The translations under genes were made by a program, and so were the position numbers. Shown piece after piece: positions 3,096 through 33,769 of a stretch of 34,750 nt of DNA (the first letter of the stretch is position 1; each line of letters begins with the position of its first letter). This DNA comes from a virus. Taxonomy: Duplodnaviria; Heunggongvirae; Uroviricota; Caudoviricetes. Location of the stretch: the IMG/VR virus record IMGVR_UViG_2875703104_000001; one strand, 5' to 3'. Under the pieces are notes generated by a model, which was not told where the DNA came from, made no database searches, and was given only the letters and a program-made list of their open reading frames with translations.

Positions 3096-5543
3096 TTAAC
3101 CGTCATGCATCATGCTGGCACGAGCGCGCGCACGTTTATCCCGCTCGTATTTTTCGAGCGCATCCTGTAACTGGCGGTCAAGCTGTATCCCCGGCGCAGT
3201 ACCACCCGTCAGGCTGATGTGATATTCGTTTTTACTCTGGTCCACATAAGAGCGGCCAGCCGGTGCCGTGACCGGCTGATAAGCCTGATAGCCTGCATAA
3301 GAGCTGGTCGCCGGAATATAACCACCGGTGCCATACGTGGCGGCATGAGTTCTGGCGGCGGTCTGGTCAAGTGTGTCTGACTCTTTGTTGATGACCCCGA
3401 GCTTTTCCAGTACCCAGTCAATACCGCTGCGCAGTTTGTTGAACGCATTAAGCGGCAGCATTAGCGCGTCAGCCAGTGCCTGCCCGAACATGACGCCCGT
3501 GTCACGGCAACGATTCAGGGTGTCCTGGGTGGCTTTAACCGGGGCAATCAGGTTTTTAAACCACTGCCACGCGGCCTGTAATTTTTCGCCCAGCCAGTCA
3601 AACACCGGTTTCAGTGGCGTGAACAGCTCCCCCACCGGCGCAAATGCCGCTTTCAGCCCTTCAACCACACCGCCAAAGAATGCGCTGACAGGCTCCCAGT
3701 ATTTACGGATAAGCAACGCCCCGGCGACAATAGCGGCCACCACAGCCACAACCGGCCAGCTAATCGCCCCGATGGCGGTCATAACAGCACTGCCAACCGT
3801 CGTGAAGATTGCCCCCATTGCGCCTGCTGCCGCGATGATGGCATTAATGCCGGTGATAACCGGCCAGGCTACAAGACCAATTGCACCGATGATGCCAGTA
3901 AGCGCCAGCGCGCCACCGGCAATGAGGCCAATGGTTGACGCCAGTGATTTGTTTTTCTGTATCCAGCCATCGAGTTTTAACACATACTTTGTGGCCGTCT
4001 GCGTGAGCTTACGCAGCGAGCCTTCCTGCTGGTCAAACAGGTCAGTCCCCACCGCCTCATAAGCGGACTGAAACTCTTTAAAGTCACCGCCGAGATTGTC
4101 CTGCATGATATTTACCAGCTCGGCGGTCTTCCCGTCTGAGGCTTTAAACGCAGCGGTCAGTTTGTCCAGCTTTCCAGTTGAGGCGGCAGTCATCAGCACG
4201 GCGGCGGCTGAGCTGGCCTCCTCCCCGAAAATAGTTTTCATGTATTCAGCCTGCTGGGCAGTACCGAGCCGGTTTTTCTCAAAACTGGCCTGCATTTCTT
4301 TCAGAATGGTAAATACTGGTCGAGTATTCCCTTTACTGTCTGAGGTTTTCACGCCAAGCTCTTTGAGTGCATCCCATGCTTTTCCCGTTGGTGCCTGCAG
4401 GCGACTTAACACGGCACGGCTTCCCGTCCCCGCCATTGAGCCTGTAATTTTTGCATCATGCAGCGCCCCGACCATTGCGGCGGTTTCTTCAATGCTGACA
4501 CCAGCATTTTTTGCCACAGGTGCGGCATAGGTCAGCGCATCGCTCATGCCATCAAAATCGGCGGCGGTTTTGTTCATCGTCATGGAGAGAACATCCCCGA
4601 TATGAGCGACCTTATCGTTTGAAAGCTGAAAGGCGGATTTCATCCCCATCAGCAGGGCGGCGTTTTCTTCCATCGTGCGACGGTTCGCCAGCGCCATATT
4701 CAGCGTGACCGGCGTTGCCGCCTGAATGGCATCAACATCCCCACCGGCTTTCGCAATAATAATCTGCGCACCGGCTGCATCATCTGCCGAGGCTGCGGTA
4801 TTGTCGCCGAGCTGGCGCGCCTGCTTGCGTAGTGCAGCCATTTCGGCGGAGTCTTTTGCCACACCGAGCACAGCCTGCAATTCTGAGTTTTTCTGCGCAA
4901 ACTCATAACCGGGCATCAGCAACTTAACTCCGGCCATCGTTCCCGCAGCAGCAATCCCCACACCGGCAGCGCCCACTGAGGCCATATTTCCGGCCAGTTC
5001 CTTTCCGGCCTGATAACGCTGTTTTACTGCGTTAAGTTTTGCCTGTTGTGCACTGACACGCGCCAGCGCGTCACGCTGACGGTTAAGCTGTGCGGTGGTT
5101 TCACTGATACGGTTTTTCAGTCCCTGCTCATCATGTGCAAGATTGCGGGTATTAATTCCCACAGCGGCCAGTTCCCGCTGCTGGCGTTTAATGGAATCTG
5201 TCAGGCGGTTATATTTCGCCTGTAAGTCCTCCGCCGCACGCTTTGCGGATTCCAGCACTTTCGCCTGAGCACGGGTCGGACGTTCAGTGTTTTTAAACTG
5301 TGTGGCAAGGGCTTCGGCTTCCTGCCGTGCCTTTTCAAGTGCATGACCAGTCACGGCAAGCTGTGCGCTGGTCTTGCGAAATCCCTCAATACGGGATGCG
5401 TGACCGTTCAGCTCGCGCAGTGATTTTTGTGTTTCCCGGATATCCCCCGACAGCGACTTACTCGCTGTGCGGATGGATTTAAACGGGCGGGATGCCTGGT
5501 CAACAGCCCTGAGCAATACCTGTAATTTTACATTGTTACTCAT
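3096..5543 (-). CDS. T: Tail tape measure protein gpT (815 aa)
   Basis: Long Ala/Gly-rich coiled-coil protein with a hydrophobic central segment, typical of tape measure proteins; length equals P2 gpT as recalled. Confidence 0.9.
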   Translation of the reverse strand: MSNNVKLQVLLRAVDQASRPFKSIRTASKSLSGDIRETQKSLRELNGHASRIEGFRKTSAQLAVTGHALEKARQEAEALATQFKNTERPTRAQAKVLESAKRAAEDLQAKYNRLTDSIKRQQRELAAVGINTRNLAHDEQGLKNRISETTAQLNRQRDALARVSAQQAKLNAVKQRYQAGKELAGNMASVGAAGVGIAAAGTMAGVKLLMPGYEFAQKNSELQAVLGVAKDSAEMAALRKQARQLGDNTAASADDAAGAQIIIAKAGGDVDAIQAATPVTLNMALANRRTMEENAALLMGMKSAFQLSNDKVAHIGDVLSMTMNKTAADFDGMSDALTYAAPVAKNAGVSIEETAAMVGALHDAKITGSMAGTGSRAVLSRLQAPTGKAWDALKELGVKTSDSKGNTRPVFTILKEMQASFEKNRLGTAQQAEYMKTIFGEEASSAAAVLMTAASTGKLDKLTAAFKASDGKTAELVNIMQDNLGGDFKEFQSAYEAVGTDLFDQQEGSLRKLTQTATKYVLKLDGWIQKNKSLASTIGLIAGGALALTGIIGAIGLVAWPVITGINAIIAAAGAMGAIFTTVGSAVMTAIGAISWPVVAVVAAIVAGALLIRKYWEPVSAFFGGVVEGLKAAFAPVGELFTPLKPVFDWLGEKLQAAWQWFKNLIAPVKATQDTLNRCRDTGVMFGQALADALMLPLNAFNKLRSGIDWVLEKLGVINKESDTLDQTAARTHAATYGTGGYIPATSSYAGYQAYQPVTAPAGRSYVDQSKNEYHISLTGGTAPGIQLDRQLQDALEKYERDKRARARASMMHDG

Positions 5544-5963
5544 TCGTGTTTCCGCTTCGCCGGAGCGCCTTTTCGCGCCATGTGATGAGTTCGGTCAGGC
5601 TCATGGGATACAGTTCTGATGGCGGCCAGTGAAATATCACTGCCACATCCGCCATCAGGTCATCGACCGACAGATTTTTCGGGAACGTTACTGCACCGAG
5701 TTCGGCGACAAAAAACCGACCACCTTACCGGCCAGCGCCACAAGGTCAGGCAGTTCCAGCGCGGCGACTTCCTGCTCGGTCAGCATCGGTGCCGTTATGC
5801 GCGGCAGCACCTTAATCAGTGCATCGACTTCTGAGTTTGCGACCGCAGCCAGACTGACACCGCGCAGCGTCCCCGCACTGGGTTTCATCAGCGTGACCTG
5901 TTCGATAACCTGCTCACCACGCTTGACCGGATTGTCCAGGGTAATGACATTTTCTTTGTTCAT
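5536..5963 (-). CDS. E': gpE+E' fusion made by programmed -1 ribosomal frameshift (predicted 142 aa)
   Basis: Slippery heptamer T TTT TTG read on the minus strand at 5715..5709 (zero-frame codons GGT TTT TTG = G F L). The -1 frame is open from 5709 down to TAA at 5536-5538 (...WREKALRRSGNTNE*), overlapping the T start. The 142-aa size equals P2 E+E' as recalled. Confidence 0.8.
5688..5963 (-). CDS. E: Tail assembly chaperone gpE (91 aa, zero-frame product)
   Basis: 91-aa ORF ending ...VVGFLSPNSVQ, immediately upstream of T; contains the slippery site near its 3' end. Confidence 0.88.
   Translation of the reverse strand: MNKENVITLDNPVKRGEQVIEQVTLMKPSAGTLRGVSLAAVANSEVDALIKVLPRITAPMLTEQEVAALELPDLVALAGKVVGFLSPNSVQ
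5709..5715 (-). promoter_or_regulatory. -1 programmed frameshift slippery site TTTTTTG
   Basis: Directly read from sequence (plus strand CAAAAAA at 5709-5715); positioned in frame as X XXY YYZ relative to the E reading frame. Confidence 0.8.
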
Positions 5964-6019
5964 GGTTTTCTCACTTCTGAATCAGGGTTAACCGGTCAGC
6001 CAGGCTGACCGGATGAAAA

Positions 6020-6538
6020 TCACAGGCCGATATTTCGGCGGTGTTGCTCCAGCCGGTCGACGCCGTTCACCTTCTCAATCATGTTGATGGTGTCGATTTC
6101 GACCAGCTCCTTACCGTCCATCGTCAGCCGGAAATAGGTGCAGACCACGGAGATTTTCGACTCGGTGTCTTCTCCCTGTTTACCCTCGCCGGTGTCGATT
6201 TCTTTCTGACGTCCACGCATGACCACTTCGACGGCCACCGTTTCGCCGGTATCGTCGCGCTGGTAAGAGCCTGCAAAACGAATCGGCACGGCATCCACAC
6301 CGGTTGCGGCGTAAAGCTCCCAGATAACCGAATCCGGGAAGCCCCCGAGCGACCACTCCATTGACAGCGCATCGTCATCAAGGCCGAGGTCTACCGGTGC
6401 GCTGCCGTTCATCCCCGCACCGCGATAGTTTTCGAGCTTACGGGTCAGTTTTGGCAGCGTGACGGACTTTGCAACGCCCTGATAGCTGTAGCCGTTCAGA
6501 AAGACGTTCATTAACTTGAGTTTGCGCGGCATTGCCAT
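6020..6538 (-). CDS. FII: Major tail tube protein gpFII (172 aa)
   Basis: Length and position match P2 FII; follows FI. Confidence 0.88.
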   Translation of the reverse strand: MAMPRKLKLMNVFLNGYSYQGVAKSVTLPKLTRKLENYRGAGMNGSAPVDLGLDDDALSMEWSLGGFPDSVIWELYAATGVDAVPIRFAGSYQRDDTGETVAVEVVMRGRQKEIDTGEGKQGEDTESKISVVCTYFRLTMDGKELVEIDTINMIEKVNGVDRLEQHRRNIGL

Positions 6539-6550
6539 CGGTCATGCTCC

Positions 6551-7741
6551 TTAATTGCTGTTAACCGAGGTGACCAGATTTGCCAGGTATTTATCAGTAA
6601 TACGCTGGCGCAGGGTCAGGTTTTCAAGAGGAGGCACCGGGGTATAGTCGTAGTCGATATACAGTTTTCCGGCCTTGAGGGTTTCCGCATCGTTGGATTC
6701 TTCACTGAACCAGCAGGTCGCATCCACGATATAGCCGTTTGTTTTCAGCTCACGGAATTTGGCATTGATGCCGTCAACGATGTCGCGAATCAGCGTTGCG
6801 GTGATGGGCTTGTCCACCGCCCACATGTGCGCCTCAGCCATCGTGTCGGCCAGCACCTGCGCGGTGCGGGTGTAGTTTTCAAAGAGGAACAGCGGGTCAT
6901 CAGAGCAGGTACGGTTACCCCAGAACCGGAAACCGTCACGGCGAATCAGCGTTGTGACGCCTGACTCGTTAAGCAGGTCAGCATCGGTGCCGGACTCCTG
7001 CAAATCCCAGAATACAGATGCGCTGATGCCGGTAACACCGTTCACCCCGACATTGGACAGCGTTTTATGCCAGCCCTGCTCCTGGTCGATTTTAGCGCGC
7101 AGACCCAGCGCACGGGCGGTGGCATACGCGGTGGCGGTGGTACTGGTGACCGTATCCCATGCGAGGAAATCCGGCCAGATGACCATCAGCTCACGCTGGC
7201 TGAAATTCTGGCGGTAGGCTTTCACCTCGGAAATGGTCTTACAGCCCCATGCGCTGATATATCCGAAAGCGCGCAGCTTCTGACAGACTGATGCCAGTGC
7301 AACAGCCACCTCTTTGGTATCCAGCCCCGGCACACCAAGAATACGCGGTTTAACACCGGTTACCGACTCTGCCGCCAGCAGGGCTTTCAGTCCGGTATAC
7401 TGACCATTTTCGTCGGTGGTGCCGATGATATTGGAAACGGTCTGCGCGAGCTTCGTTTCTTCGTCATCGCCGGTGCCGTCTTCCACGCGCACGACAACGG
7501 TGACCGGTTTTGACTGGTCAGCGATGGCCTGCAACGATGCCGCCAGCGTGCCTTTTTTACCGGCCTTTGCAATTGCACTCTGCACATTGGTAATCAGCAC
7601 CGGTTTATTGAGGGGGAAGGTTTCCGCATCCGCATCGCTGGCCGTGCAGACCATGCCGACAATGGCAGTGGATACGGTGGAAATGACGCGGGTGCCGTCG
7701 TTAATCTCCAGCACCTGCACGCCGTGATGATAGTCACTCAT
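6551..7741 (-). CDS. FI: Contractile tail sheath protein gpFI (396 aa)
   Basis: Length and position match P2 FI; first gene of the FI-FII-E-T-U-D operon. Confidence 0.9.
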   Translation of the reverse strand: MSDYHHGVQVLEINDGTRVISTVSTAIVGMVCTASDADAETFPLNKPVLITNVQSAIAKAGKKGTLAASLQAIADQSKPVTVVVRVEDGTGDDEETKLAQTVSNIIGTTDENGQYTGLKALLAAESVTGVKPRILGVPGLDTKEVAVALASVCQKLRAFGYISAWGCKTISEVKAYRQNFSQRELMVIWPDFLAWDTVTSTTATAYATARALGLRAKIDQEQGWHKTLSNVGVNGVTGISASVFWDLQESGTDADLLNESGVTTLIRRDGFRFWGNRTCSDDPLFLFENYTRTAQVLADTMAEAHMWAVDKPITATLIRDIVDGINAKFRELKTNGYIVDATCWFSEESNDAETLKAGKLYIDYDYTPVPPLENLTLRQRITDKYLANLVTSVNSN

Positions 7742-8222
7742 CCGTTTAACTCCGTGGTTAATGGGTGAGTGGTATTTTCAGTTGTACCCGAGATGTCAGA
7801 CTATTTGTCCCGGTTGGCTAATCGACAGCACAACCACCGGTAAAGAAAAGGCGGGCAATTCGCTCGCCTGTCCTGATTTGTACTCACTTATTTCCCGACT
7901 GACAATTTACATAGCCAAAACGCTATCAAATCTGACAGTCTGCTTTGAGCGAGAAGCAGGCCTTACACTGTAATCAGCATAGAATAGGATGCAGAATCGC
8001 TAAACAAATAGATGTCTGTCAGAGTAGTGGCTTTTAGTGGAAATCTATAGTTGCTATAGCTCAGATAATTAAGTGCCGTCTCTGTCCGCAACTCTAGTCA
8101 GAGTTTATTGCACAGGGGAAATAAATAAGTGCATGTGAATCATTGTCACGAAACAGTAAATATTCGTCATGGGTCATCATATCACTATTTATATGTGTCA
8201 GAGTTGATACCCACCACTGAAA

Positions 8223-9269
8223 TCACTTTCCAAACTTATTAAATTGTTCAGCAATGAAATCAATATACTCATTACCTTGGCCGTTATGCCTGAATTTTTG
8301 CTGCCCTTCGAAATCTAAATTAGGTGAAAAATGAATTATTTGGTTATCTTCATACAGTTTTAAAGGAGAATAAAATGACAATGATTTATCATTCAATAAT
8401 TGACGCACTCCTGTTATAGCACTACCAATCAAAATATCACATAATTGAACTGCCGGGCTTAGTTTTGAATCAACTTGGTGAACATGCTCAAGCTTTAATG
8501 GGAATTTAATACTGGCGATTTCAGACATCTTAAACTCGGCTGGCGTCTGACATTTGATAAGCATCGAAAGATATTCATTGTATTGTAAAAGATTTTTAGA
8601 ACGATCATGCTCAATGCTATACGGTCCCTCTGACATTAATTCAGTGCGTGATATTAGTGCTTGAAGAATAACAAATGCTGCATCAGTAGAAATTTTTGGA
8701 TTAGTTATTGCCGTAATACAATCTGGATGCTCTAAAGCTAGTGGCCCCAGCACTTCCGGTAATAGACGCCAATTCACGGCCCTAACGTTCGCAATAAGGT
8801 TATTTACTGCTGTGTGCGTTTTCTCATGCATCGCATTTTGAAAAGATATTAGGATATTATCAAAATCTCTACCAAAGTAGCTTTGGCAGACATAGTAAGC
8901 CATTGATGCCATAGAAACGTTTCCACCATTTTCGTATAGATTTATCCCATGGTCATAGTAAAAAGGCTCTACCGCATACTCAATAAACATTTGAATTAGA
9001 ATCAAACGTTTATCGGCAACACAAGTAACACATGGAAAATTGGCAAGTAGTTCCTGTTGCAAAGTAAAAATTGGTTTTTGATAACTATCTCGCTTTTTAA
9101 GAGAGCTAAATTTCAATTCAGGGGCTTTGTGTTTAGGAAAATGTTGTCTGATAAGATGAAGAGCATCGTCATGACTAATCTTTACAGCGCTGGCCCCTTG
9201 CCAAGGTTGTGACTTTTGAAGAAGATCTCGCCCAGTGTAACCAGACTCATCAATTGAAAATATACTCAT
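8223..9269 (-). CDS. Cargo protein, DUF3800-like (348 aa), function unknown; candidate defence or moron gene
   Basis: N-terminus MSIFSIDESGYTG resembles the DUF3800 signature (hydrophobic-x-IDESG) and a C-terminal VQLCDILIGSAI resembles the DUF3800 QxADxxA-type motif. Gene is markedly AT-rich and sits at the P2 Z/fun position between FI and G. Confidence 0.6.
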   Translation of the reverse strand: MSIFSIDESGYTGRDLLQKSQPWQGASAVKISHDDALHLIRQHFPKHKAPELKFSSLKKRDSYQKPIFTLQQELLANFPCVTCVADKRLILIQMFIEYAVEPFYYDHGINLYENGGNVSMASMAYYVCQSYFGRDFDNILISFQNAMHEKTHTAVNNLIANVRAVNWRLLPEVLGPLALEHPDCITAITNPKISTDAAFVILQALISRTELMSEGPYSIEHDRSKNLLQYNEYLSMLIKCQTPAEFKMSEIASIKFPLKLEHVHQVDSKLSPAVQLCDILIGSAITGVRQLLNDKSLSFYSPLKLYEDNQIIHFSPNLDFEGQQKFRHNGQGNEYIDFIAEQFNKFGK

Positions 9270-9367
9270 TTATTCTGTGTCCATAGCTGTTGTTTCACCC
9301 AAAATACCTTTTTGGATAGTATTGCGCTATAGCCTTTAACCCTATTAATTGAGATCCATCGATGCAA

Positions 9368-9397
9368 GCAACGTCCGCTCATGGCACAGAGCGGACG
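9368..9397 (+). repeat. 30-bp hairpin-forming element, copy A (GCAACGTCCGCTCATGGCACAGAGCGGACG)
   Basis: Internal perfect 9-bp inverted repeat CGTCCGCTC/GAGCGGACG; about 87% identical to copy B at 11114..11143 in the same orientation. Confidence 0.7.
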
Positions 9398-9414
9398 ATA
9401 TCACTGAGCTGAAG

Positions 9415-9438
9415 GTCCGCTGAGAGCGAGGAGCGGAC
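9415..9438 (+). repeat. Second, shorter hairpin with the same GTCCGCT/AGCGGAC arms
   Basis: GTCCGCT-gagagcgagg-AGCGGAC, read directly, 18 bp downstream of copy A. Confidence 0.6.
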
Positions 9439-9548
9439 GTAGGGAATTGGTCCTTTCCCCCAACGATAACGTGTGTTAATCAGCCGAGAGTGGGTTATGA
9501 AACGCGGTGAATAGTTATGTTCCCAGTATCGCCATATTCCAGCCACTT

Positions 9549-10934
9549 TCAACGCATGCTTTTTGCGGTCTTATCTTGCTCCCAATGTGTGACACCTTCG
9601 ACCCCACGCGTCGAGTCAGATGTAAGCATCAATGGCTGTCTAAGGAAGAGCCCCATCAAATCCGGGACACGGGCAAAGTCTTGAACAGTCTCAGCCCACT
9701 CATAGTTGTCCTCTAATGGGTAATAATTAACGGCATGCAGGAAAGCACCCAACACGGTTGTTTTAGAGGCATCGTAGGCCGAGATATGCTCCATGTTTTT
9801 ATCCCTACGTAGTTCTTCAATATCTATGCCTTCGCAAGTCTCATACCAAATATGCACCACGCCAGCACGATCAGGGGGAATCTGCATGACTCCATCATTG
9901 AGCAAGCTCTTGAAATGCTTGGATCTGAGGCCAAGAGAAATCTCATGATCGCAGCACCACTGAGCTCCAACGCACTTTGCAACATCCTCTACAAAAATGT
10001 TGAGAATATCGTTATTGGTGCCAGGACGAATAACTCTCTGAGCGATAGTCGAGATACTTCGTTTCTCATTGCTATCTAGATCCCCAAATACCAGCAATTC
10101 ATGCTGTGGGCTATTGGCTCTGACTGAAAATTTTCTGTAGTGACGTCTGAGACCTAATTTGTCGATGGCTCGTATTCCCACACTGATTGAACCTTCATTA
10201 GCTTTTCCCGTCCCCCCTTTAATGGCTAGATTCACCGCTTTAATAACGTCTGCCGGAGTCACACTGGCGACCTGCTCATGGAAAATTATATCGACAATGT
10301 TCCATGGTGCGACTTTGAGCATATGTTGGCTCAATTGATGCCAGATGTTGGCCCAGGCTTGCTCTTCTGTCTTTGAGTACTTGGTTTGCTTATCCGACCT
10401 TTTGCACTCGACGTAGAACTCCAGATCACCTAACTTGACGAGCATATCCGGTGATTTTTTGGTCTTTCCATCGGGCCAAACAATGCTGCTTTCTGGGATG
10501 AAGGCAACCTCATAGCCGTTCTTTAGGTAGAACGATGCCGTCAGCAGCTCAAAAATTTGAGTTTCTGGTTTATTGTTATTTGCTAGCATTTTGTCCAGAA
10601 CATCATCGACGTATGGGACTTTGCGAAGCTGGTCTGCAACAGCTCCGATGGCCATAGCATAGGGGTAGATACGTCTGCTGCTGTAAGTAGCATCACTATA
10701 TGGAAAATCATGAGACAGATACGACGCCAGAATGTACCAGTCGATGTCATCTTCTGCTGGTATGAAGAGCTGGGGCTCTATCGGCAGATTGATGTTAAAC
10801 TTAGCCTCCTTCTCTCTTATGCGCTTGAAATATGCAGCTTTGCGAGCAGCCCAGGCCTCAGTTCCAAGCCTATCCACAAGCAACTGATAAAAAGCTTTTG
10901 TTCTTAAACGCTCAACACTACTGACACTATCCAT
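9549..10934 (-). CDS. Cargo protein of unknown function (461 aa) with a possible PD-(D/E)xK nuclease-like motif
   Basis: AT-rich ORF with no recognisable P2 counterpart. The segment SPDMLVKLGDLEFYVECK has PD...E-x-K spacing compatible with a restriction-endonuclease-like core; this is weak, motif-only evidence. Confidence 0.55.
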   Translation of the reverse strand: MDSVSSVERLRTKAFYQLLVDRLGTEAWAARKAAYFKRIREKEAKFNINLPIEPQLFIPAEDDIDWYILASYLSHDFPYSDATYSSRRIYPYAMAIGAVADQLRKVPYVDDVLDKMLANNNKPETQIFELLTASFYLKNGYEVAFIPESSIVWPDGKTKKSPDMLVKLGDLEFYVECKRSDKQTKYSKTEEQAWANIWHQLSQHMLKVAPWNIVDIIFHEQVASVTPADVIKAVNLAIKGGTGKANEGSISVGIRAIDKLGLRRHYRKFSVRANSPQHELLVFGDLDSNEKRSISTIAQRVIRPGTNNDILNIFVEDVAKCVGAQWCCDHEISLGLRSKHFKSLLNDGVMQIPPDRAGVVHIWYETCEGIDIEELRRDKNMEHISAYDASKTTVLGAFLHAVNYYPLEDNYEWAETVQDFARVPDLMGLFLRQPLMLTSDSTRGVEGVTHWEQDKTAKSMR

Positions 10935-11113
10935 TGCGGTCTCTCTTGGTTGTTGTATAGAGTCTTTAGCGATATATGTGATTTCAACTTATTGGAGGTA
11001 TTATCCTTCAGAAATCAAAGTTTGCTACCACAAAGAAATAGAAACTCTTTATTGCATCCTGTGTAAGTATCTATCCAAGCGGACCATTAGTTTTTTTAGA
11101 TATCTGACGTCCC

Positions 11114-11143
11114 GCAACGTCCGCTTCTGGCACATAGCGGACT
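11114..11143 (+). repeat. 30-bp hairpin-forming element, copy B (GCAACGTCCGCTTCTGGCACATAGCGGACT)
   Basis: 26/30 identical to copy A; the two copies bracket the 461-aa gene. Confidence 0.7.
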
Positions 11144-11206
11144 GTCAGATTAGGCTTTACTCTGTGCCATAGATATGTAAGCTCACACCAGAGATCATAC
11201 AACTTA

Positions 11207-11731
11207 TTACGGCATTTCCGGCCATTCGGGATTTGCAGGATCCACACGACTGACCAGAACGCTGTAGCGTTCCCATGCTTCCAGTCGGCCGCGTTCCTCA
11301 TCTGTTGCCATATTCAGCCTGACAGCGCGTTCCAGTGGCTGAATGATAGTTTCAGCTTCGGAAAGCAAAGCTGCCTTCTGTAATTCCGCCAGTTGCTCCT
11401 GTTCATCTGCCGTATAAATCCGCTTAATCACAGCACCATCCTTAAACATCCATTTACCTGAGTCATCAGCACGTCGGTTGGAGGTAATATCAGGAACCTC
11501 GACAACGCTGAAACCTTCAGGGTTAAGCGTTGAAGCATCTCTGGTGATGGCGACAATAATATTATTCTCGTCGTAAACAATTTTTATTGTGTCTGGCTGA
11601 AAATTACTTACTTCCTCATACCAGTTTTTTCCGTCTTCGGACCATAACCAGATAACATCAAAATTCTTTGTTAGCTGATATTGTTCTTTTGTTTTTGGAT
11701 TACCTGACTTAATGTTTTCTAAATGCTGCAT
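11207..11731 (-). CDS. G: Tail fibre assembly protein gpG (174 aa)
   Basis: C-terminal region ...[39 protein letters not shown] is the conserved Tfa/gpG-type tail fibre assembly motif; located immediately downstream of H. Confidence 0.85.
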
Positions 11732-11734
11732 AAT

Positions 11735-14544
11735 TTACACCTGCGCAACGTTATACCATGTGCCATTGATGTATTTTTGTATTGGTCTGAATACTGCTGG
11801 GTCATCACCATCGACTTCACCGACAATACCAAGCCCCGTGATTACATGGCCTGATTTTTCATACATCACGCCTTTTTGCATGGTCTGAACAACACGTGTG
11901 CCAAGTCTGACATCTCTCACATAGCGGGAATCAAAGTTACCGTAATCCGAGGGATTAACACTCCCCGTAATATTTATGGTTTTATTACTTTGAATACTTC
12001 CCGAGACAAAGCGCATAACATGGACGCTATTAGCATAAACATCCAGATTACCATCACCATTTTGTTTAAAGCCCGTGTCATTATCACCCAAAACAATCGA
12101 ATTACCGCCAAGAGCACTGGATGTTCCTATACCCAGAGCACCATTCAATTGACCACCAGATAACGGCAGGGCACCGACATCTCCCGCTGTAGGTTTTCGC
12201 GTTGTGGTATAAAACTCAGACCAGTCAGCCTCGAATCCGTAACCGTCACGAGCAGAACGATAAAAAATACCGCCGTTCTTATAATTAACGCGGAACTGGG
12301 CGGCGGGACAACTTCCTTCACCGATATTAAAATGAAGAATTAACGTTGATGCACCACCAATAGTTGCGTTATAGGCTCCGCTACTCCAGTTCCATCCAAC
12401 GGCTTTATCATTCGCAACGGTGTCTCCTGTTTTTCCTGAAGCAAATGCACCAATATTTTTCGGCGTCAGGTTAATATCTGATGTTCCATCAAACGAAACG
12501 TTATTAATTTTATTCCTGAAGCAAATGCACCAATATTTTTCGGCGTCAGGTTAATATCTGATGTTCCATCAAACGAAACGTTATTAATTTTACGGGCTGT
12601 TTTCAGCTTTGTTGCTGTCGCCGCATTGCCGGACAGTTCACCAGAAAGGCCAGCACTGAATGTCTGTTTCGCGCCCCATGTATGGGCTTCGTCAATGATT
12701 GGTACTCGTCTTGTTGTGATCGTGCGGCTTCCCGGATTTCCTGAAATACGCACCATAAAAAAGCGGTAGTTGGCTTTACTTACAGTGCTGCGCCATACAT
12801 GCATTGAGCGCCCCGAACCAGAATCATCACTCGGACCGACTGAGATGTTTATCAGGTTGCCATCAATGACGCCCCAGTCCATACCGTCGGGAATATTGGT
12901 CATGTTATCCAGCCGAACGGTTATCAGACTGCCCGGCACAAAATTGTATGTCTGCCAGTCCAGGCTGGTGAGTTTTGCCACTGCGCCACCGATACCCAAC
13001 TCTAACGGCAAAGAGTTTGAGTTATAAATCTGTCGCCACTCCCCCCACGCGTTAAATGAGCCACCAAGAAACACTCGCTCATATAAACGGTCTTTTGTAG
13101 CTGCGCTGGTTCCTGTGGTCGTGTAACGTTGCAAAACATAGACACCATCCTTGCGCCTGATGACTTCCAGAAAACCAGACTGCCCCTGGATTGGGGTGTG
13201 GGTCGCTTTGCCTGTCACACTGTAAATACCCGGAGACATCAAATCATCCAGGTCATCCTCATAGAAGGTACTACTGGTCTGATAACCAATTTGGATCCAG
13301 TCTTCCCACTGTGGATTTTCTGCATCCCATTTGGCTGTCAGGCCGCGAATATACATAGTCCCGTTACGGGTTGTATAACGCTGCGTGCGTCCATATAGCC
13401 CACCTTCGAAAATTTCCAGAATGCCCTGCGCGTCTCCTCCCTGCTCAGGGTAATGTCGTTCAAAAGAAGCTATTGCTGAACTGCTGTTTCTCCATAGACC
13501 TAAATGTTCTGCGCCACCGAGAGAGTTAAGGTCAATGGTCGTACTTAGAGCACGCGTTACAGCCTGAACATGGCGCCATGCTCCCCATGGTCCATCATTA
13601 CCATTCCATGTTCCAATGAGTTTGCGGGTATACAAATTTCCGTCACGTGTGGTATAGCGTTGCGTGCCTGCAAAATTGCCGCCAGCAAAAACCTCAAGCA
13701 CACCGACAGCATTATCTTCCGGGAAGTTTTTCTCCAGTGTTGCGTTGGTGGATGTTGCTTTAGACCAGATACCTGAATAAGCCTTAACAGGACCAAACGT
13801 ATTCAGATCAGCATTAAGCGGCATTTCGCCATTGTTTTTCATAAACGTCAGGCTGGTAACGCCAACATTGTCCAGAAAAGCGCCCTTATCTGGAATATCG
13901 CCACCGTTCTGGTCTTTCTGCAGACGTTTCTCAGCATTGTCATAGGCTGCTTTTACTGCCTTTGGCGTTGCCGCCAGCTTTTCACTGGTGCTGTTTGTTG
14001 CACTGCTTAACTGAGTAAAACCTTTTTCTGTCAGCGTGGCGTCAGGATGGCGGCGGGACTGCTCATGCTCTGCGATTTTGTCATCGACGTAATCCTGCGT
14101 CGCCATCACTGTGCTGGCATCAATAGTCAGCTCAACAGACGCCACGTTACTGATAATAATAACCATGCGGCAGGTCTGCGCACGTCCGGAGCCTTCAGCC
14201 AGTTCTGGTTTATAGCTTTCTGCCATGTTGGATACCGCAATCAGTGTTCCGGCATCGTCATACAGACCAAGCTCACGCATCCAGAAGCCGCCCACTTCGG
14301 GCGGTACAACCAGTTCAGCCACGATATAGTTTTTATTCTTATTATCCACGCTGACTTTATTCAGAGCGTGACGCCAGACCTCATGCACCAGTTTCGTCTG
14401 ACCGGCATCCGGCACCGGCAATTTGCCATTACCGTCACCCACGGCCATTGCAGACAGGTTTACTTTTTTCCCGCCGGGGACAGTGGCGGCAGCCAGCTTT
14501 GCGGCTCCGGCAGTAGTGATAACGGTTTTAAATTTCGTGCTCAT
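11735..14544 (-). pseudogene. H: Tail fibre gene H, frame-disrupted by an 80-bp tandem duplication (N-terminal ORF 12466..14544; C-terminal open frame 11735..12465)
   Basis: N-terminus MSTKFKTVITTAGAAKLAAATVPGG... matches P2 gpH. The ORF stops 47 nt into the first repeat copy with an aberrant ...GIKLITFRLMEHQILT tail. The other frame is open from 12465 to 11735 and encodes the expected continuation (...KNIGAFASGKTGDTVANDKAVGWNWSSGAYNA...). Deleting one 80-bp copy gives a single 909-codon ORF. Confidence 0.85.
12433..12592. repeat. Perfect 80-bp tandem direct duplication (12433..12512 = 12513..12592) inside gene H
   Basis: Read directly: both copies are TTCCTGAAGCAAATGCACCAATATTTTTCGGCGTCAGGTTAATATCTGATGTTCCATCAAACGAAACGTTATTAATTTTA. 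80 is not a multiple of 3. Confidence 0.95.
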
Positions 14545-26411: not shown

Positions 26412-26531
26412 CGCCCGCTTCGTGGGACGATTTTAATGCAGTTGCCCGCATTAGCTGAATCCGCGCCAGAACAGACATTATGGATATGTCAATACGAACT
26501 TATTGACGTGCAAAATCATGCAATCAAGCGC

Positions 26532-26557
26532 AAAAAAAACCGCCTTCAAAGAGGCGG
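26532..26557 (-). terminator. Rho-independent terminator downstream of the kinase-HIRAN gene (minus strand)
   Basis: Plus strand AAAAAAAA-CCGCCT-tcaaag-AGGCGG; on the minus strand this is a hairpin followed by U8, about 20 nt after the stop at 26577. Confidence 0.7.
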
Positions 26558-26576
26558 TTTATGTTATCCCATTGGA

Positions 26577-28220
26577 TTAAGATCTACATTCAACTAAAAG
26601 GTACACTAATGGACGTTCTGGCGTCCCATTCTTCTTTGCAACAAAAGCAGATATTTTGTGTTTTGCTATTTTTTGCTTGAGTTTTTTACATAACACTTTG
26701 TTTATATAACCAAGTTTCCCGCTCTCATGAACAACAGCTATAGCATGTGGATCAACCGGGTTATCCTCTTCAGGAACAAGCTTGACCAAATCACCGACCA
26801 TTACTTTCGACAAATCAAGCCCTTCCTGATAACGAGTTCCTGCCACTTCAAAAAGAAGCTCACCTTCACTATTAAGAATTTCTGGATCTGGCACCAAACA
26901 AAAACCATCGCCAGGTGATTTTGCTCCTGTATATCCTAACAGCGCAAAATCAGAGCCTTCAAATGGATGGGGGAGCAAATGTTGAGCCAGATACTCAGCA
27001 AAGTCTTTTCTTTTCCGTGGTGGTAAACGCCGAACAAACGGGTCAAGCACGTTGTTCGTATGTTCTTCACTTTTCAGACTAAATGCGGGATGTCCTGCAA
27101 ACCCTTTCTCTTGGGCTTTAGCATAATCTTCTGACTGAAAATGGTATGTGAAGACGTAGTTATCCCCTTGCTGACGATCAATCTGACCAACAACATAACG
27201 AGTACCGCCTGTGGGTGGCTGCCATGTAAGAAGCAACCGAGTAGGCTCCATTATTCTGTTTATAGTACGCATATTTAGAATCAGTGATAACCTTAGGTAT
27301 CTACGCCTCAATAAACGAATCGTCCAATCCGCTCGTTCCCTAGTGAACGGCACATCGGAGCTAATTTCGCAAAGTGAATCTATCTTGTCGACCAGTTCCT
27401 GAAAATCAAATTCAAGTCTCCGGGCCAAGTACGCTTTTGACTGCTCATCAAGAGCCAAATCCTGTATAGAAGAAATATGACCTAATCGTTCATGCGTGTC
27501 TGCCCGATTCTTCCGCAAATGATGACAACCACGCTGTATGTATTCATCTACATTTTGATGGTTCCATCCTCTGATCCTCTCTACATACCTTTCATGCCCC
27601 AAACTAGTACCATTATCGAAATATGGTGCGAGATATCCCTTCACTTTAGGTGGCGTTATGCCTGGTGCAGATTCAGGTACAAAAACAAAACCCCAATTCT
27701 CTTGGTGTCTATCACTATTACCGATGAGCGCATCAAAAAGCAGCATATCGTAAAGCCATTGGATCCAGTCTGGAGAGATCAGGCCGCGGATACTAAAAGC
27801 CCTACAAATTAAGCGTAGATCAACAAGGTTATGGTGTCTTCCGGAAGAGTCATCAAAATCCGATATCAACACATGAAAAAAATCAGACGCATGAACAAAT
27901 AACTGGCTACTTTGATCGTAAAACCACTCAAGCAAAGCTCCATATTCGTATTCACCGTTCTCCATCATTCTTCGCGCTGGCAATGCTTTAGGAACAGGAA
28001 CGCCCATAACATCTCCAACTATATAAGCAACGGTTTCCATCCAGTACTGATCGGGATAAGCATCTCTTGAGAGTTTAAAAAGATAAGGCCATTCCGGTTT
28101 TATCCCCTCAGGAGCATCATTCGGTGACCAAAGCATTTTTTTATCCCTCGCTCCTCGAGGAAAAATGCCATGCTCATCATCTTTACGCCAACTAGTTACA
28201 TCTATTAAATTGATATCCAT
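26577..28220 (-). CDS. HipA-like Ser/Thr kinase domain protein with C-terminal HIRAN-like domain (547 aa); candidate defence or toxin effector
   Basis: LFDALIGNSDRHQENWGFVF fits the HipA-family catalytic loop (GNxDxHxxN) and LAPYFDNGTSLG the downstream HipA motif. C-terminus LFEVAGTRYQEG...LVPEEDNPVDPHAIAVVHESGKLGYINK fits the HIRAN signature. Gene is AT-rich and sits between cos and A. Confidence 0.65.
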   Translation of the reverse strand: MDINLIDVTSWRKDDEHGIFPRGARDKKMLWSPNDAPEGIKPEWPYLFKLSRDAYPDQYWMETVAYIVGDVMGVPVPKALPARRMMENGEYEYGALLEWFYDQSSQLFVHASDFFHVLISDFDDSSGRHHNLVDLRLICRAFSIRGLISPDWIQWLYDMLLFDALIGNSDRHQENWGFVFVPESAPGITPPKVKGYLAPYFDNGTSLGHERYVERIRGWNHQNVDEYIQRGCHHLRKNRADTHERLGHISSIQDLALDEQSKAYLARRLEFDFQELVDKIDSLCEISSDVPFTRERADWTIRLLRRRYLRLSLILNMRTINRIMEPTRLLLTWQPPTGGTRYVVGQIDRQQGDNYVFTYHFQSEDYAKAQEKGFAGHPAFSLKSEEHTNNVLDPFVRRLPPRKRKDFAEYLAQHLLPHPFEGSDFALLGYTGAKSPGDGFCLVPDPEILNSEGELLFEVAGTRYQEGLDLSKVMVGDLVKLVPEEDNPVDPHAIAVVHESGKLGYINKVLCKKLKQKIAKHKISAFVAKKNGTPERPLVYLLVECRS

Positions 28221-28229
28221 ATCTTACGG

Positions 28230-28781
28230 TTACCCAGCTAATGCACGGAAAGCAGCACTAACATAAGCTACCTGAAACTTTGCATCTCGAAGCGCATGAT
28301 GCGCATCAGTAACATTAATGGAAAAATTTGCCCTTACATCAATATTCTTAAGGCTTTTAGCTAGTTCAACGATGGTACGCACGTCTCGATCATTTCGAAA
28401 ACGCCATGGGATATTTTGCGCATGTTTACGGTAAACCGCTGCCAATATAGCGTTATCAAAGCTTGCCCCATTCCCCCAAACTTGTACGTCATCGTTACTA
28501 CGACTTCGTACAAATAGAGAAAATTCTTGTAAGGCTTCATGTAAGTCAACAGCAGACGGGTCATTAAAAACCGCCCTTGCAGAATCGCTTTGTATCATCC
28601 ACCACTGTAAAGTTTTTGGGTCTACAAAACTATTTTCCAATGCAGATGATAGGGTTATAACTCTATAAAACTCATCCCCACACTTGCCAGTCAGAGGCTC
28701 AAAGAACACAGCGCCGATTGAAATCAAAGGAGCATCCATTGACACACCTAATGTTTCTATATCGAGCATTAAATTATTCAT
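28230..28781 (-). CDS. DEDDh-family (DnaQ/RNase T-like) 3'-5' exonuclease (183 aa)
   Basis: Exo I motif LDIETLG (D-x-E), central FDNAIL aspartate and C-terminal AHHALRDA (H-x4-D). GGAGG ribosome-binding site 4 nt before the ATG; 9-nt gap to the kinase gene suggests one operon. Confidence 0.7.
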   Translation of the reverse strand: MNNLMLDIETLGVSMDAPLISIGAVFFEPLTGKCGDEFYRVITLSSALENSFVDPKTLQWWMIQSDSARAVFNDPSAVDLHEALQEFSLFVRSRSNDDVQVWGNGASFDNAILAAVYRKHAQNIPWRFRNDRDVRTIVELAKSLKNIDVRANFSINVTDAHHALRDAKFQVAYVSAAFRALAG

Positions 28782-28921
28782 TTAACCTCCACCCCAGACA
28801 TAGCTCAGGGAAACGTAACCTATTGAAATAACGAATCAAGTATTTGTCACATTCTATACTAAAACATTCGAATTCCAAAACTTCAGCTTTTGCAACCCCT
28901 TACAAGTCAATTGATCCATAA

Positions 28922-28941
28922 TACTGTATACATACACAGTA
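28922..28941. promoter_or_regulatory. LexA (SOS) box TACTGTATACATACACAGTA
   Basis: Matches the E. coli LexA consensus TACTG(TA)5CAGTA with a perfect CTGT-N8-ACAG core. It lies 19 bp past the A stop and about 140 bp upstream of the exonuclease start. Confidence 0.7.
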
Positions 28942-28959
28942 CTACATTTGAAAAACAAA

Positions 28960-31236: not shown

Positions 31237-31501
31237 ATGAGCCAAAAGCCTCTGAACAACGCTTGCTGAGTTGCTCAACCTGCGCGTTTAAATCAGCAAA
31301 AGACTTTGCGCTTCCGGTCAGAATATCGTGATGCATCAGGCCGGAAACGAGCTGGCTTAATTTCGGGTAATAACCAACCACCGACAGCCATTCCTGACCG
31401 GCGTTTTTACCGCTTTCCGCTCTCTTTTTCTCGTGGAGAACAAACTGAAAGCTGTCACTGGTAACGACATAACGTTCGCCAATTTCAATACGAATACTCA
31501 T
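31226..31501 (-). CDS. Small early-operon protein, P2 orf83-like by position (91 aa)
   Basis: Position immediately upstream of A in the cox-B-A operon; no motif recognised. Confidence 0.6.
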   Translation of the reverse strand: MSIRIEIGERYVVTSDSFQFVLHEKKRAESGKNAGQEWLSVVGYYPKLSQLVSGLMHHDILTGSAKSFADLNAQVEQLSKRCSEAFGSYGR

Positions 31502-31722
31502 GCCGTTCTCCGGTAATGTTTGTTTTTTGCTTCAAAGACTGACTGACAGGAAACACAACGCGTGGCTGACGGATAAGCCGCACGACGGGCAGCAGGTATT
31601 GGCGCGTCACACTCTTCGCAAACCAGCGCAGAAGCACCGCAATGTTTTACCCTTGCCGCGTTAATCTGGCGCTCCAGTAATTCAGCCTGTTGTTCCTGAA
31701 TAAAATCTACGTTGTCCGGCAT
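31498..31722 (-). CDS. TraR/DksA-type C4 zinc-finger protein, P2 orf82-like (74 aa)
   Basis: CEECDAPIP...CVSCQ gives a CxxC-N17-CxxC arrangement typical of phage TraR/DksA-family proteins. Confidence 0.7.
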   Translation of the reverse strand: MPDNVDFIQEQQAELLERQINAARVKHCGASALVCEECDAPIPAARRAAYPSATRCVSCQSVFEAKNKHYRRTA

Positions 31723-32027
31723 TACCAGTTCCTTTTGTCGTTCAGTTTTTTAAATTCATCAGCGCAATAGCTGGCGATTTCTGTCGTTAATTTCGTCAGT
31801 TCATCCACGGAGGAAATTTGCTTGTGAAATACAGCGCGTTTAACAAGTAAATTGACCACATCAGACAGGAGGTTTAATTCACTCTGATAAATCGCGATAA
31901 CAGATTCAGTTATTTCGCGTTTTTCTTTATCAAGACCAAGTTGAATAAGAGACAAATCGCCATTTTTCATAACGGCGATTTTTAAGGCATTGTTCAGTAA
32001 AACAACTGAACGAGAACAGGACATCAA
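31722..32027 (-). CDS. Small early-operon protein, P2 orf81-like by position (101 aa)
   Basis: Position and size only. Confidence 0.55.
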
Positions 32028-32281: not shown

Positions 32282-32311
32282 TTAAGTGCGTTAAAAACTC
32301 TGGTTAATTAC

Positions 32312-33700: not shown

Positions 33701-33769
33701 CACTCTATAAACATTATATTTTCACCATTTGTTACCAAGATGGTGAATACAGCGTCAGAGGGCTTTCTT

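What the first reader, a model, noticed from the sequence alone, without database searches (positions are those of the whole stretch)
7742..11206. AT-rich cargo island at the P2 Z/fun hotspot between FI and G
In P2 the non-essential gene Z/fun sits between the tail fibre assembly gene G and the sheath gene FI. Here that slot holds about 3.4 kb of visibly AT-rich DNA with two orphan genes (348 aa and 461 aa) on the late-gene strand, long AT-rich intergenic regions and structured repeats. None of it resembles P2 core genes. This is the second candidate for an accessory or defence system.
Basis: partly seen in the sequence, partly recalled or inferred. Interest (0 to 1): 0.8.

Follow-up and report, generated by a model that had tools for sequence, protein, structure and literature searches.

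The report
Two nuclease cassettes in P2 hotspot
The gap between the tail genes G and FI of this P2-like prophage holds two separately mobile, hairpin-bounded single-gene cassettes, each encoding an uncharacterised nuclease-like protein that is probably an anti-phage defence gene, in a slot already known as a P2 defence hotspot.

Summary
Between G (11207-11731) and FI (6551-7741) lie about 3.2 kb of cargo (7958-11115, GC 0.42 against 0.56 for FI) with two genes on the late strand. The slot is the known P2 Z/fun locus, where three defence systems have been validated.

The island is not one system. Each gene sits between its own inverted hairpins (GTCCGCT-N10-AGCGGAC).
- The 461-aa gene occurs at 99% identity without its neighbour in other E. 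coli islands and non-P2 viral contigs, with homology ending at the hairpins.
- The 348-aa gene occurs hairpin to hairpin in a Proteus lambda-like prophage.
- None of 90 loci with a relative of the 348-aa gene holds a relative of the 461-aa gene.

The 461-aa protein has an invariant PD-ExK nuclease motif and fold. Its relatives lie beside Lamassu, AbiTii, a type IIG restriction-modification gene and PD-T4-3.

Neither matches a known defence system in PADLOC-DB v2. My best reading is two independent single-gene nuclease defences. Their function is untested. A side lead: the hairpins mark a widespread cassette array in E. coli, often beside a 200-aa tyrosine recombinase.

The parts
7742..7928 (-). 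Conserved P2 backbone upstream of FI. It holds the region homologous to the P2 pF late promoter and its activator site, and a terminator-like hairpin at 7854-7868. It is not cargo.
   Evidence: 95.5% identical to P2 over window 7602-7957. P2 annotation of the pF start and the activator site. Terminator-like site.
7929..7964 (.). R2: the FI-side inverted repeat. It contains a degenerate hairpin, GTCTGCT-ttgagcgaga-AGCAGGC (7938-7961), and the outer box AATCTGACA. It is shared by P2-like phages that carry different cargo.
   Evidence: 36-nt inverted repeat, 81% complementary to 11116-11151. The same element lies at the FI side of P2-EC30, Wphi, YpM_46 and a prophage carrying an S1 peptidase, with homology breaking at the inner arm.
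7965..8222 (-). Non-coding tail of the DUF3800 cassette. The stretch 7995-8198 (204 nt) is absent from the Proteus copy. It contains three ACTCTGAC repeats (8012-8025, 8097-8108, 8191-8208) and a fragment GTTGCGGAC that resembles the inner flank of an L element. It is probably the decayed scar of an earlier cassette junction.
   Evidence: Gap in the alignment with L014. Repeats D3 and D6. Sequence read directly. Not significantly structured as RNA, z = -0.68. No Rfam match.
8223..9269 (-). gB: a 348-aa DUF3800 protein with an RNase HII/HIII-like fold. Invariant residues are D7-E8-S9-G10, E101, D196, H221-D222 and Q275..D278.
9368..9440 (.). Internal hairpin doublet. It consists of L2 (9373-9396, upstream of gB), an 18-nt spacer, and R1 (9415-9438, downstream of gA). 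It is the junction between the two cassettes. As a single strand it folds into one long imperfect hairpin.
   Evidence: Repeats D1 and I3. Exact pattern matches. RNA fold -35.8 kcal/mol, z = -4.98. The same doublet is found in 480 of 5426 E. coli genomes and is never annotated.
9549..10934 (-). gA: a 461-aa protein with an N-terminal helical region, a PD-ExK nuclease core (invariant E129, P162-D163, E176-C-K178) and a C-terminal alpha/beta region of unknown role (about residues 210-430).
11114..11154 (.). L1: the G-side inverted repeat. It has the hairpin GTCCGCT-tctggcacat-AGCGGAC (11119-11142) and the outer box TGTCAGATT. It is the upstream boundary of the gA cassette and is shared by P2-like phages with other cargo.
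   Evidence: Homology of stand-alone gA cassettes ends at 11138-11154. P2 homology begins at 11116.
9409..11154 (-). gA cassette as a mobile unit (L1, gA, R1).
   Evidence: 99.3-99.7% identical in E. coli islands L004, L005 and L006 and in non-P2 viral contigs L105, L106 and L110, with homology stopping at the hairpins.
7924..9396 (-). gB cassette as a mobile unit (L2, gB, R2).
   Evidence: 81% nucleotide identity to Proteus lambda-like prophages L014-L017 from window 9396 to 8199, then from 7994 to 7924. That is hairpin to hairpin.

Best explanation
The G-FI interval is the known P2 Z/fun cargo slot. It is occupied here by a tandem array of two independent single-gene cassettes. Each cassette has the form L hairpin, gene, R hairpin, and L and R are inverted copies of one motif (GTCCGCT-N10-AGCGGAC).

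Shown:
- The cassettes are separate mobile units with different histories.
- They were exchanged by recombination at the hairpins.

Inferred:
- Each gene is a stand-alone anti-phage defence gene, expressed from the prophage to exclude other phages.
- gA is a PD-ExK DNA endonuclease. Its non-catalytic N- and C-terminal domains would sense a feature of infection and license cleavage.
- gB is a type-2-RNase-H-like nuclease (DUF3800). It most likely acts on RNA/DNA hybrids or structured nucleic acid made during phage replication. This fits the use of DUF3800 as the effector beside retron type VII reverse transcriptases.

The two genes need not cooperate. The recombinase that moves the cassettes is not encoded in the window. 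A 200-aa tyrosine recombinase found beside hairpin arrays elsewhere in E. coli is a candidate.
For: Slot identity and variability:
- The flanks match P2, and the cargo differs among 75 phage records and 1763 E. coli genomes.
- Literature: Z/fun is flanked by inverted repeats (PMC8987985) and is a second P2 defence hotspot with three validated systems (PMC9519451).

Independence of the two cassettes:
- gA is in 42 E. coli genomes and gB in 36. Six genomes have gA alone in non-P2 islands.
- Six of 7 IMG/VR contigs have gA without gB.
- Homology ends at the hairpins.
- The gB cassette occurs hairpin to hairpin in a Proteus prophage.
- 0 of 90 gB-family loci hold a gA relative, and 1 of 17 gA-family loci holds gB.
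- GC3 is 0.28 for gB against 0.48 for gA.
- Another array, L108, pairs gA with a HEPN_LA2681 cassette.

Nuclease assignments:
-.

Defence neighbourhoods:
- gA lies beside LmuB_C/MC3 and AbiTii; a type IIG restriction-modification gene; patatin, MbcA and a ubiquitin-like Bub module; PD-T4-3 (E 4e-140); and PDC-S64.
- gB lies beside AbiH (17 of 79 loci), GajA+GajB directly downstream (11-12 loci), an LmuB-like SMC ATPase directly downstream (12 loci), RES, PDC-S05 and a NACHT protein. It also lies in ICE cargo slots and at a prophage moron position.
Against: - There is no experimental evidence for defence by either family.
- PADLOC-DB v2 gives no hit for gA and only a 33-residue marginal hit (PDC-M04A, E 7e-4) for gB. 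NCBIfam gives nothing.
- Guilt by association rests on a small sample for gA (about 10 distinct contexts).
- No convincing promoter or terminator was found for either gene, so expression in the lysogen is unshown.
- gB relatives often sit immediately upstream of ABC/SMC ATPases (24 of 79 loci). The family may therefore normally need a partner that is missing here.
- The substrate of DUF3800 is unknown, and its third and fourth catalytic residues were not mapped.
- Within E. coli the two genes always travel together at 100% identity in one prophage lineage. That does not exclude a functional link in this lineage.
Confidence: 0.6

Rival explanations
1. One two-gene defence system. gA and gB act together, for example as sensor plus effector or as two nucleases in one pathway, as the first reader's 'system' implies.
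For: They are adjacent, on the same strand, and always together at 100% identity in 36 E. coli genomes and two phage records.
Against: Those 36 genomes look like one prophage lineage, because the sequence is identical. Elsewhere the genes are apart: six E. coli genomes and six viral contigs have gA alone, and 0 of 90 gB-family loci hold a gA relative. A hairpin doublet that is itself a recurrent junction element separates the two genes. Their composition differs.
Confidence: 0.08
2. The cassettes are morons with a function other than defence. Possibilities are anti-defence (for example degrading another system's nucleic-acid signal or msDNA), prophage addiction or toxin modules, or accessory nucleic-acid metabolism for the phage.
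For: Hotspots in P2 also carry non-defence cargo such as partition systems and cytolethal distending toxin (PMC9122126). Nucleases serve many roles. No known defence model matches.
Against: Both families recur next to bona fide defence genes in chromosomal islands, ICE cargo slots, plasmids and prophages of many genera, not only in phages. The Z/fun slot yielded validated defence genes. Most unknown genes tested from the sister P4 hotspot were defensive: 6 of 8 (PMC13586616).
Confidence: 0.2
3. Selfish IS-like or homing elements. The inverted repeats are transposon ends, and the RNase-H-fold (DDE-like) or PD-ExK protein is each cassette's own transposase or homing nuclease.
Confidence: 0.07
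4. Decaying, non-functional insert. The AT-rich DNA holds chance ORFs or pseudogenes.
For: There are long non-coding stretches and a scar-like 204-nt segment.
Against: Both proteins are full-length members of conserved families with 58-81 invariant columns, including catalytic motifs. Their structure models are confident, with pLDDT 88-91.
Confidence: 0.02

Closest known systems
P2 Z/fun (TO-region) lysogenic-conversion slot, also called P2 defence hotspot #2 (Nilsson et al. 2004; Vassallo et al. 2022)
   Same: Same position between G and FI. The same conserved inverted repeats lie at both edges. The cargo is GC-poor and differs from phage to phage. The cargo is also found, with its repeats, outside P2.
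   Different: The cargo here is neither Fun(Z), nor EC30 ORF1 (no similarity), nor any PD-T4, PD-T7 or PD-lambda system in PADLOC-DB v2. The slot holds two cassettes joined by an internal hairpin doublet rather than one.
DUF3800 (PF12686) proteins: the retron type VII effector, the TPR-DUF3800 proteins next to Cas12a2/a3, and the genes associated with the DUF3800-I to -XI RNA motifs
   Same: gB passes the Pfam threshold and has the N-terminal DE and C-terminal QxxD motifs and the RNase H2-like fold described for the family (PMC7736814, PMC10910872).
   Different: No reverse transcriptase, CRISPR array or TPR domain is present. No Rfam DUF3800 RNA motif was found in the window or in 15 related loci. 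gB is a stand-alone 348-aa protein with a large helical insertion.
Single-polypeptide PD-(D/E)xK defence nucleases (Shedu SduA, Hachiman HamA, NucC, type IV restriction enzymes)
   Same: gA has the PD-ExK motif and core fold. It is a single gene in defence neighbourhoods.
Integron gene cassettes and Acinetobacter pdif modules (cassette exchange at short recombination sites; integrons act as defence biobanks, bioRxiv 10.1101/2024.07.02.601686)
   Same: Short, promoter-poor modules, mostly of one gene, are bounded by imperfect palindromes and arranged in arrays. Presence/absence polymorphisms have breakpoints inside the palindromes.
   Different: Each cassette has two inverted sites rather than one attC. 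No IntI-type integrase and no XerC/D-like site sequence is present. The candidate recombinase is a 200-aa catalytic-domain-only tyrosine recombinase located elsewhere in the genome.

Membership tests
P2 Z/fun (TO-region) hotspot cargo | Located between tail-fibre assembly gene G and sheath gene FI of a P2-like phage | tested here: met
   ORFs and P2 homology.
P2 Z/fun (TO-region) hotspot cargo | Bounded by the conserved inverted repeats shared by P2-like phages that carry different inserts | tested here: met
   The R and L elements are present in P2, EC30, Wphi, YpM_46, R18C (L only) and a prophage carrying an S1 peptidase. Homology breaks at the inner arm.
P2 Z/fun (TO-region) hotspot cargo | Insert varies between otherwise similar phages | tested here: met
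   36 of 1763 E. coli genomes with the flanks carry this cargo. Other genomes carry an Sll1717-type ATPase, an S1 peptidase, DUF3606 or hypothetical genes.
DUF3800 (Pfam PF12686) | Score above the Pfam gathering threshold | tested here: met
   26.3 bits against a cut-off of 21, over residues 6-283.
DUF3800 (Pfam PF12686) | N-terminal DE motif and C-terminal QxxD motif (as described in PMC7736814) | tested here: met
   D7, E8, Q275 and D278 are invariant in 39 sequences.
DUF3800 (Pfam PF12686) | RNase H-like fold | tested here: met
Type 2 RNase H (RNase HII/HIII) enzymes | Sequence membership (Pfam RNase_HII) and the DEDD catalytic tetrad in equivalent positions | tested here: inconclusive
   No Pfam RNase_HII hit and no PDB sequence hit. 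The D-E pair aligns in motif form (IDESG). The other two carboxylates were not mapped by superposition.
Type 2 RNase H (RNase HII/HIII) enzymes | Cleaves the RNA strand of RNA/DNA hybrids | not testable with these tools
   Needs biochemistry.
Retron type VII (RT + ncRNA + DUF3800) | Adjacent reverse transcriptase and msr/msd ncRNA | tested here: not met
   No reverse transcriptase ORF in 7742-11206. No retron model hit in PADLOC. No Rfam hit.
PD-(D/E)xK nuclease superfamily (gA) | Conserved D...(D/E)xK motif on the core beta-sheet, and the restriction-endonuclease-like fold | tested here: met
AHJR-like REase (PF18743) (gA) | Score above the Pfam gathering threshold | tested here: not met
   16.4 bits against a cut-off of 26.1.
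Known anti-phage systems (PADLOC-DB v2.0.0, including PD-T4/T7/lambda, Gabija, Lamassu, Shedu, retrons) | Significant match of the proteins to a system's HMMs, with the required partner genes present | tested here: not met
   gA: no family. gB: only PDC-M04A, E 7e-4 over 33 residues. No GajA, GajB or LmuB in the window.
Anti-phage defence gene (functional class) | Reduces phage plating or burst when expressed | not testable with these tools
   Only neighbourhood evidence is available.
Integron gene cassette | A single 3' attC with R''/R' core sites (RYYYAAC / GTTRRRY) and an IntI integrase with attI | tested here: not met
   Each gene has two inverted hairpins. The sequence after the L hairpin is GTTGC, which does not fit GTTRRRY. 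No integrase lies in the slot.
Insertion sequence / transposon | Terminal inverted repeats specific to the encoded transposase | tested here: not met
   The same repeats flank unrelated genes.

The most novel reading that the evidence does not exclude
The GTCCGCT-N10-AGCGGAC hairpins may mark an unrecognised, integron-like cassette-exchange platform of Enterobacteriaceae. It would consist of single-gene modules, largely defence genes (gA, gB, PD-T4-3, a HEPN_LA2681 protein, Fun(Z) and others), each bounded by inverted hairpins. These modules would be shuffled between the P2 Z/fun slot, lambdoid and Rac-like prophages, and chromosomal islands. The recombinase would act in trans: a 200-aa, catalytic-domain-only tyrosine recombinase that sits divergently next to hairpin arrays in about 860 of 5426 E. 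coli genomes. In addition, stand-alone DUF3800 would be a new single-gene defence family that acts on RNA/DNA hybrids.
Probability: 0.25. Interest if true: 0.8.

Novelty: new member of a known kind. Interest (0 to 1): 0.5.

Why it matters
The slot and its general behaviour are already known, so the island is not a new kind of thing. It does offer two compact, clonable candidates from a hotspot with a high validation rate.

The DUF3800 cassette is the more valuable of the two. DUF3800 is widespread. It is linked to retron type VII, to Cas12a2/a3 loci and to eleven unexplained RNA motifs, and no function has been demonstrated for it. A stand-alone copy in a proven defence slot would make its activity directly testable.

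The finding also corrects a likely annotation error, which is to call adjacent hotspot genes one 'system'. Finally, it points to hairpin-mediated cassette exchange, possibly with a dedicated small tyrosine recombinase, as the way defence genes move between phages and islands in E. coli.

Tried and rejected
1. Structured RNA partner for DUF3800. An Rfam E-value scan of 7500-11500 gave only chance hits. A gathering-threshold scan of 15 related loci found only a tRNA. The 258-nt region downstream of gB is not unusually stable (z = -0.68). Rejected for lack of evidence.

2. Homology to P2 Fun(Z) or P2-EC30 ORF1. None found.

3. Sequence search of the PDB with profiles. Nothing for gA, and only spurious TPR hits for gB.

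4. Promoter and terminator scans. Counts were no higher than in shuffles, so they are uninformative.

5. A conserved partner gene for either family. Clustering of 711 neighbour ORFs in 80 loci gave no universal partner.

6. Literature look-ups by protein accession, by hairpin sequence and by keywords. No paper was found on these proteins or hairpins. Supplements of two hotspot papers had no mention or were not held. The primary paper on the slot (Nilsson 2004, PubMed id 12949155) is not in the library, so its description of the repeats is known only through citing papers.

7. 'Recombinase family protein' hits at the FI edge. These proved to be a different P2-like architecture with an invertible tail-fibre segment, which is irrelevant here.

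8. Hairpins as intrinsic terminators. They have 7-bp stems, 10-nt loops and no U-tract, and single hairpins are not more stable than shuffles. Unlikely.
Full report
**1. Observation**

The window is a P2-like prophage with its late genes on the minus strand. FI (sheath) is 6551-7741 and G (tail-fibre assembly) is 11207-11731. Between them lie two minus-strand ORFs. I call them gB (348 aa, 8223-9269) and gA (461 aa, 9549-10934). They are separated by non-coding stretches of 481, 279 and 272 nt.

GC falls from 0.54-0.58 to the left of 7.5 kb to 0.35-0.48 between 8.0 and 11.0 kb. Values by segment:
- FI 0.562
- cargo 0.419
- gB 0.364
- gA 0.462
- G 0.442
- H 0.43-0.49

The left break is therefore sharp, but there is no break at 11.2 kb, because the tail-fibre genes are themselves GC-poor.

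Alignment with P2 shows that 7602-7957 (95.5%) and 11116-11395 (88.9%) are conserved backbone. The cargo proper is 7958-11115.

The island is 100% identical to Escherichia phage 899 and Yersinia phage GMG73. In 73 other phage records only the edges match. The edges occur in 1763 of 5426 complete E. coli genomes, and the whole island in 36.

**2. The slot is known**

P2 carries fun(Z) here. [quoted passage not shown] Rousset et al. studied the other hotspot, between A and Q (PMC9122126). A 2026 survey names the Z/fun locus as a P2 defence locus (PMC13586616).

**3. Anatomy: two cassettes, not one island**

The repeat search found a hairpin motif, GTCCGCT-N10-AGCGGAC. It occurs exactly three times in the window (9373-9396, 9415-9438, 11119-11142). 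The expected number is 0.13, and no shuffle reached the observed count. A degenerate fourth copy lies at 7938-7961.

Read in the gene sense, the order is: L1, gA, R1, an 18-nt spacer, L2, gB, R2. L elements have the loop xTGTGCCAxx, and R elements have the loop CCTCGCTCxx. L and R are inverted copies of each other.

The outer pair (L1 and R2, with the boxes AATCTGACA and TGTCAGATT) is shared by P2, P2-EC30, Wphi, YpM_46, R18C and a prophage carrying an S1 peptidase. All of these hold different cargo, and their homology breaks at the inner arm of the hairpin.

The internal R1-L2 doublet folds as one long hairpin (-35.8 kcal/mol, z = -5).

**4. The two genes move separately**

gA:
- gA is present at 99% or higher identity in 42 E. 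coli genomes, and gB in 36.
- The six extra genomes carry gA alone. In some it lies in an IS-rich island next to a VbhA antitoxin. In another it lies in a tRNA-Phe island next to a restriction endonuclease and a GIY-YIG gene.
- Homology to the window runs from 9409 to 11154, or from 9403 to 11138. That is hairpin to hairpin.
- In IMG/VR, six of seven contigs with gA lack gB and share nothing else with this P2-like window. Again the breakpoints lie at the hairpins.

gB:
- The gB cassette is found at 81% nucleotide identity at the end of the tail region of Proteus lambda-like prophages.
- The match runs from window 9396 to 8199 and resumes at 7994-7924. The window therefore has an extra 204 nt (7995-8198). 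This segment holds three ACTCTGAC repeats and an L-flank-like fragment, and it looks like a decayed junction scar.

Across all loci:
- None of 90 gB-family loci holds a gA relative.
- Only 1 of 17 gA-family loci holds gB, and that locus is identical to the window.
- GC3 differs strongly between the genes: 0.28 for gB against 0.48 for gA.
- Another array, L108, pairs gA with a second hairpin-bounded cassette that encodes a HEPN_LA2681 protein.

I conclude with high confidence that the island is a tandem array of two independent cassettes. The co-occurrence in 36 identical E. coli copies reflects one prophage lineage.

**5. gA**

- No Pfam family passes threshold. The weak AHJR-like restriction-endonuclease hit scores 16.4 bits against a cut-off of 26.1 and covers residues 133-204.
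- The family is small, with 132 clusters at 90% identity. Members are about 460 aa and occur in Enterobacteriaceae, Pseudomonas, Aeromonas and Stenotrophomonas.
- Among 38 sequences, E129, P162-D163 and E176-C-K178 are invariant. This is a textbook PD-ExK motif.
- The C-terminal alpha/beta part matches only the non-catalytic central domain of acetyl-CoA carboxylase, which is uninformative.

Neighbourhoods of gA:
- In P. aeruginosa it lies between LmuB_C/MC3 (Lamassu-like) and AbiTii.
- In Pseudomonas sp. GM50 it lies near patatin, MbcA, an M78/HTH pair and a Multi_ubiq/ThiF/BubE module.
- In Stenotrophomonas it lies near a type IIG restriction-modification gene.
- In L110 it is adjacent to PD-T4-3 (PADLOC E 4e-140), and in L006 to a gene annotated as a LEM-3-like GIY-YIG protein, the same Pfam domain as the L110 PD-T4-3 protein. 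In L109 it is adjacent to PDC-S64.
- There is no conserved partner.

Inference: gA is a single-polypeptide DNA endonuclease defence whose flanking domains act as sensor or regulator.

**6. gB**

- Pfam DUF3800 scores 26.3 bits against a cut-off of 21.
- More than 900 clusters are about 350 aa long and about 50% identical across alpha-, beta-, gamma- and delta-proteobacteria and beyond.
- Invariant residues are D7-E8-S9-G10, E101, D196, H221-D222 and Q275..D278. These include the DE and QxxD motifs described for DUF3800 (PMC7736814).

In 79 genome loci there is no universal neighbour. Recurrent neighbours are:
- AbiH (17 loci)
- GajA+GajB immediately downstream (11-12 loci)
- an LmuB-like SMC ATPase of about 900 aa immediately downstream (12 loci)
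- a RES toxin (6 loci)
- PDC-S05 (2 loci)

Several loci show gB alone between ICE backbone genes. An E. coli plasmid copy sits beside a NACHT protein.

The literature links DUF3800 to retron type VII, to Cas12a2/a3 loci and to eleven RNA motifs. None of these partners is present here.

Inference: gB is a stand-alone RNase-H2-like nuclease defence that most plausibly attacks RNA/DNA hybrids or structured replication intermediates. The frequent ABC/SMC-ATPase neighbour elsewhere is a caveat.

**7. Comparison with known systems and novelty**

PADLOC-DB v2 recognises neither protein. NCBIfam gives nothing. PHROGs lists both only as 'unknown function'.

The island is a new member of a known kind: uncharacterised, probably defensive cargo in the known P2 Z/fun hotspot. 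It is not a member of retron VII, Gabija, Lamassu, Shedu, integron cassettes or insertion sequences, because defining features of each were tested and not met. Details are in the membership table.

**8. Side lead: a wider hairpin-cassette network**

The R-L doublet is present, unannotated, in 480 of 5426 E. coli genomes at 80% or more coverage of the query, and in 899 genomes with any match.

Sampled loci (CFT073, 64.1, 8178, 124, BE311) show arrays of hairpin-bounded modules. At one chromosomal site, a 1-kb module is present in one strain and absent in another, with breakpoints inside two direct R hairpins.

Four of these five loci carry a 200-aa tyrosine recombinase (Pfam Phage_integrase, E 5e-19), and so do three further loci found through the recombinase gene itself. 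In at least four of these seven loci it sits divergently from the adjacent upstream gene. All seven recombinase loci sampled have hairpins of this family within 4.5 kb. The relaxed hairpin pattern has a background rate of about 1 per 20 kb.

The recombinase is absent from the window. This is an integron-like layout and a candidate mobilisation mechanism, but it is only a lead.

**9. Verdict**

- Observation: confirmed.
- Interpretation: partly supported.
- Best explanation: two independent hairpin-bounded single-gene nuclease cassettes, probably anti-phage. Confidence is about 0.85 for the cassette architecture and about 0.6 for the whole statement including the defence function.

Noticed in passing
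window 12433-12592: A perfect 80-bp tandem duplication (12433-12512 equals 12513-12592) lies inside the tail-fibre gene H. It is absent from the otherwise identical phage 899. It shifts the frame, so H reads 14544 to 12466 (692 aa) and the remainder survives only as ORF 12148 to 11735. Either the prophage has a broken tail fibre or this is an assembly artefact.
   Followed up: yes
window 9368-9440; loci L112, L118-L121: The internal double hairpin is a recurrent, never-annotated element. It is found in 480 of 5426 E. coli genomes (899 with any match). It lies in arrays of hairpin-bounded modules in chromosomal islands and Rac-like prophages. At one site a 1-kb module is present in L119 and absent in L121, with breakpoints inside direct R hairpins.
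   Followed up: partly
L112 7126-7728; L118, L119, L120, L122-L124: A 200-aa tyrosine recombinase with only the catalytic domain (WP_001305361 and relatives) occurs in 863 of 5426 E. coli genomes. It sits next to hairpin arrays in 7 of 7 sampled loci, and in at least four of them it is divergent from the adjacent upstream gene. It is a candidate trans-acting recombinase for the cassettes. It is absent from the window.
   Followed up: partly
L027, L031, L034, L037, L038, L040, L044, L049, L055, L066 and L021 (Gabija); L057-L060, L064, L067, L086, L090, L092, L094, L095, L098 (SMC ATPase): Relatives of the DUF3800 gene lie directly upstream, on the same strand and separated by -26 to about 100 nt in most loci, of either GajA+GajB or an LmuB-like SMC ATPase of about 900 aa. 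This holds in about 24 of 79 loci from many genera. DUF3800 may be an accessory or effector of ABC-ATPase systems there.
   Followed up: partly
L108 1570-3491: A second hairpin-bounded cassette next to gA in an IMG/VR contig encodes a 588-aa HEPN_LA2681 protein. PADLOC does not recognise it.
   Followed up: partly
window 26500-29000: A second GC-poor block (0.38-0.44) with strongly negative GC skew. It is presumably the other P2 cargo hotspot, the old/tin position between A and Q.
   Followed up: no
window 31500-34750 and 1000-1500: Further stretches of lower GC (0.43-0.47) at the window ends. I did not examine them.
   Followed up: no
L113 (E. coli FDAARGOS_1058) 5060-6504: Some P2-like prophages lack the Z/fun slot altogether. 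Next to FI they carry instead a frameshifted serine-type 'recombinase family protein' with alternative tail-fibre and assembly genes, that is, an invertible host-range segment.
   Followed up: partly
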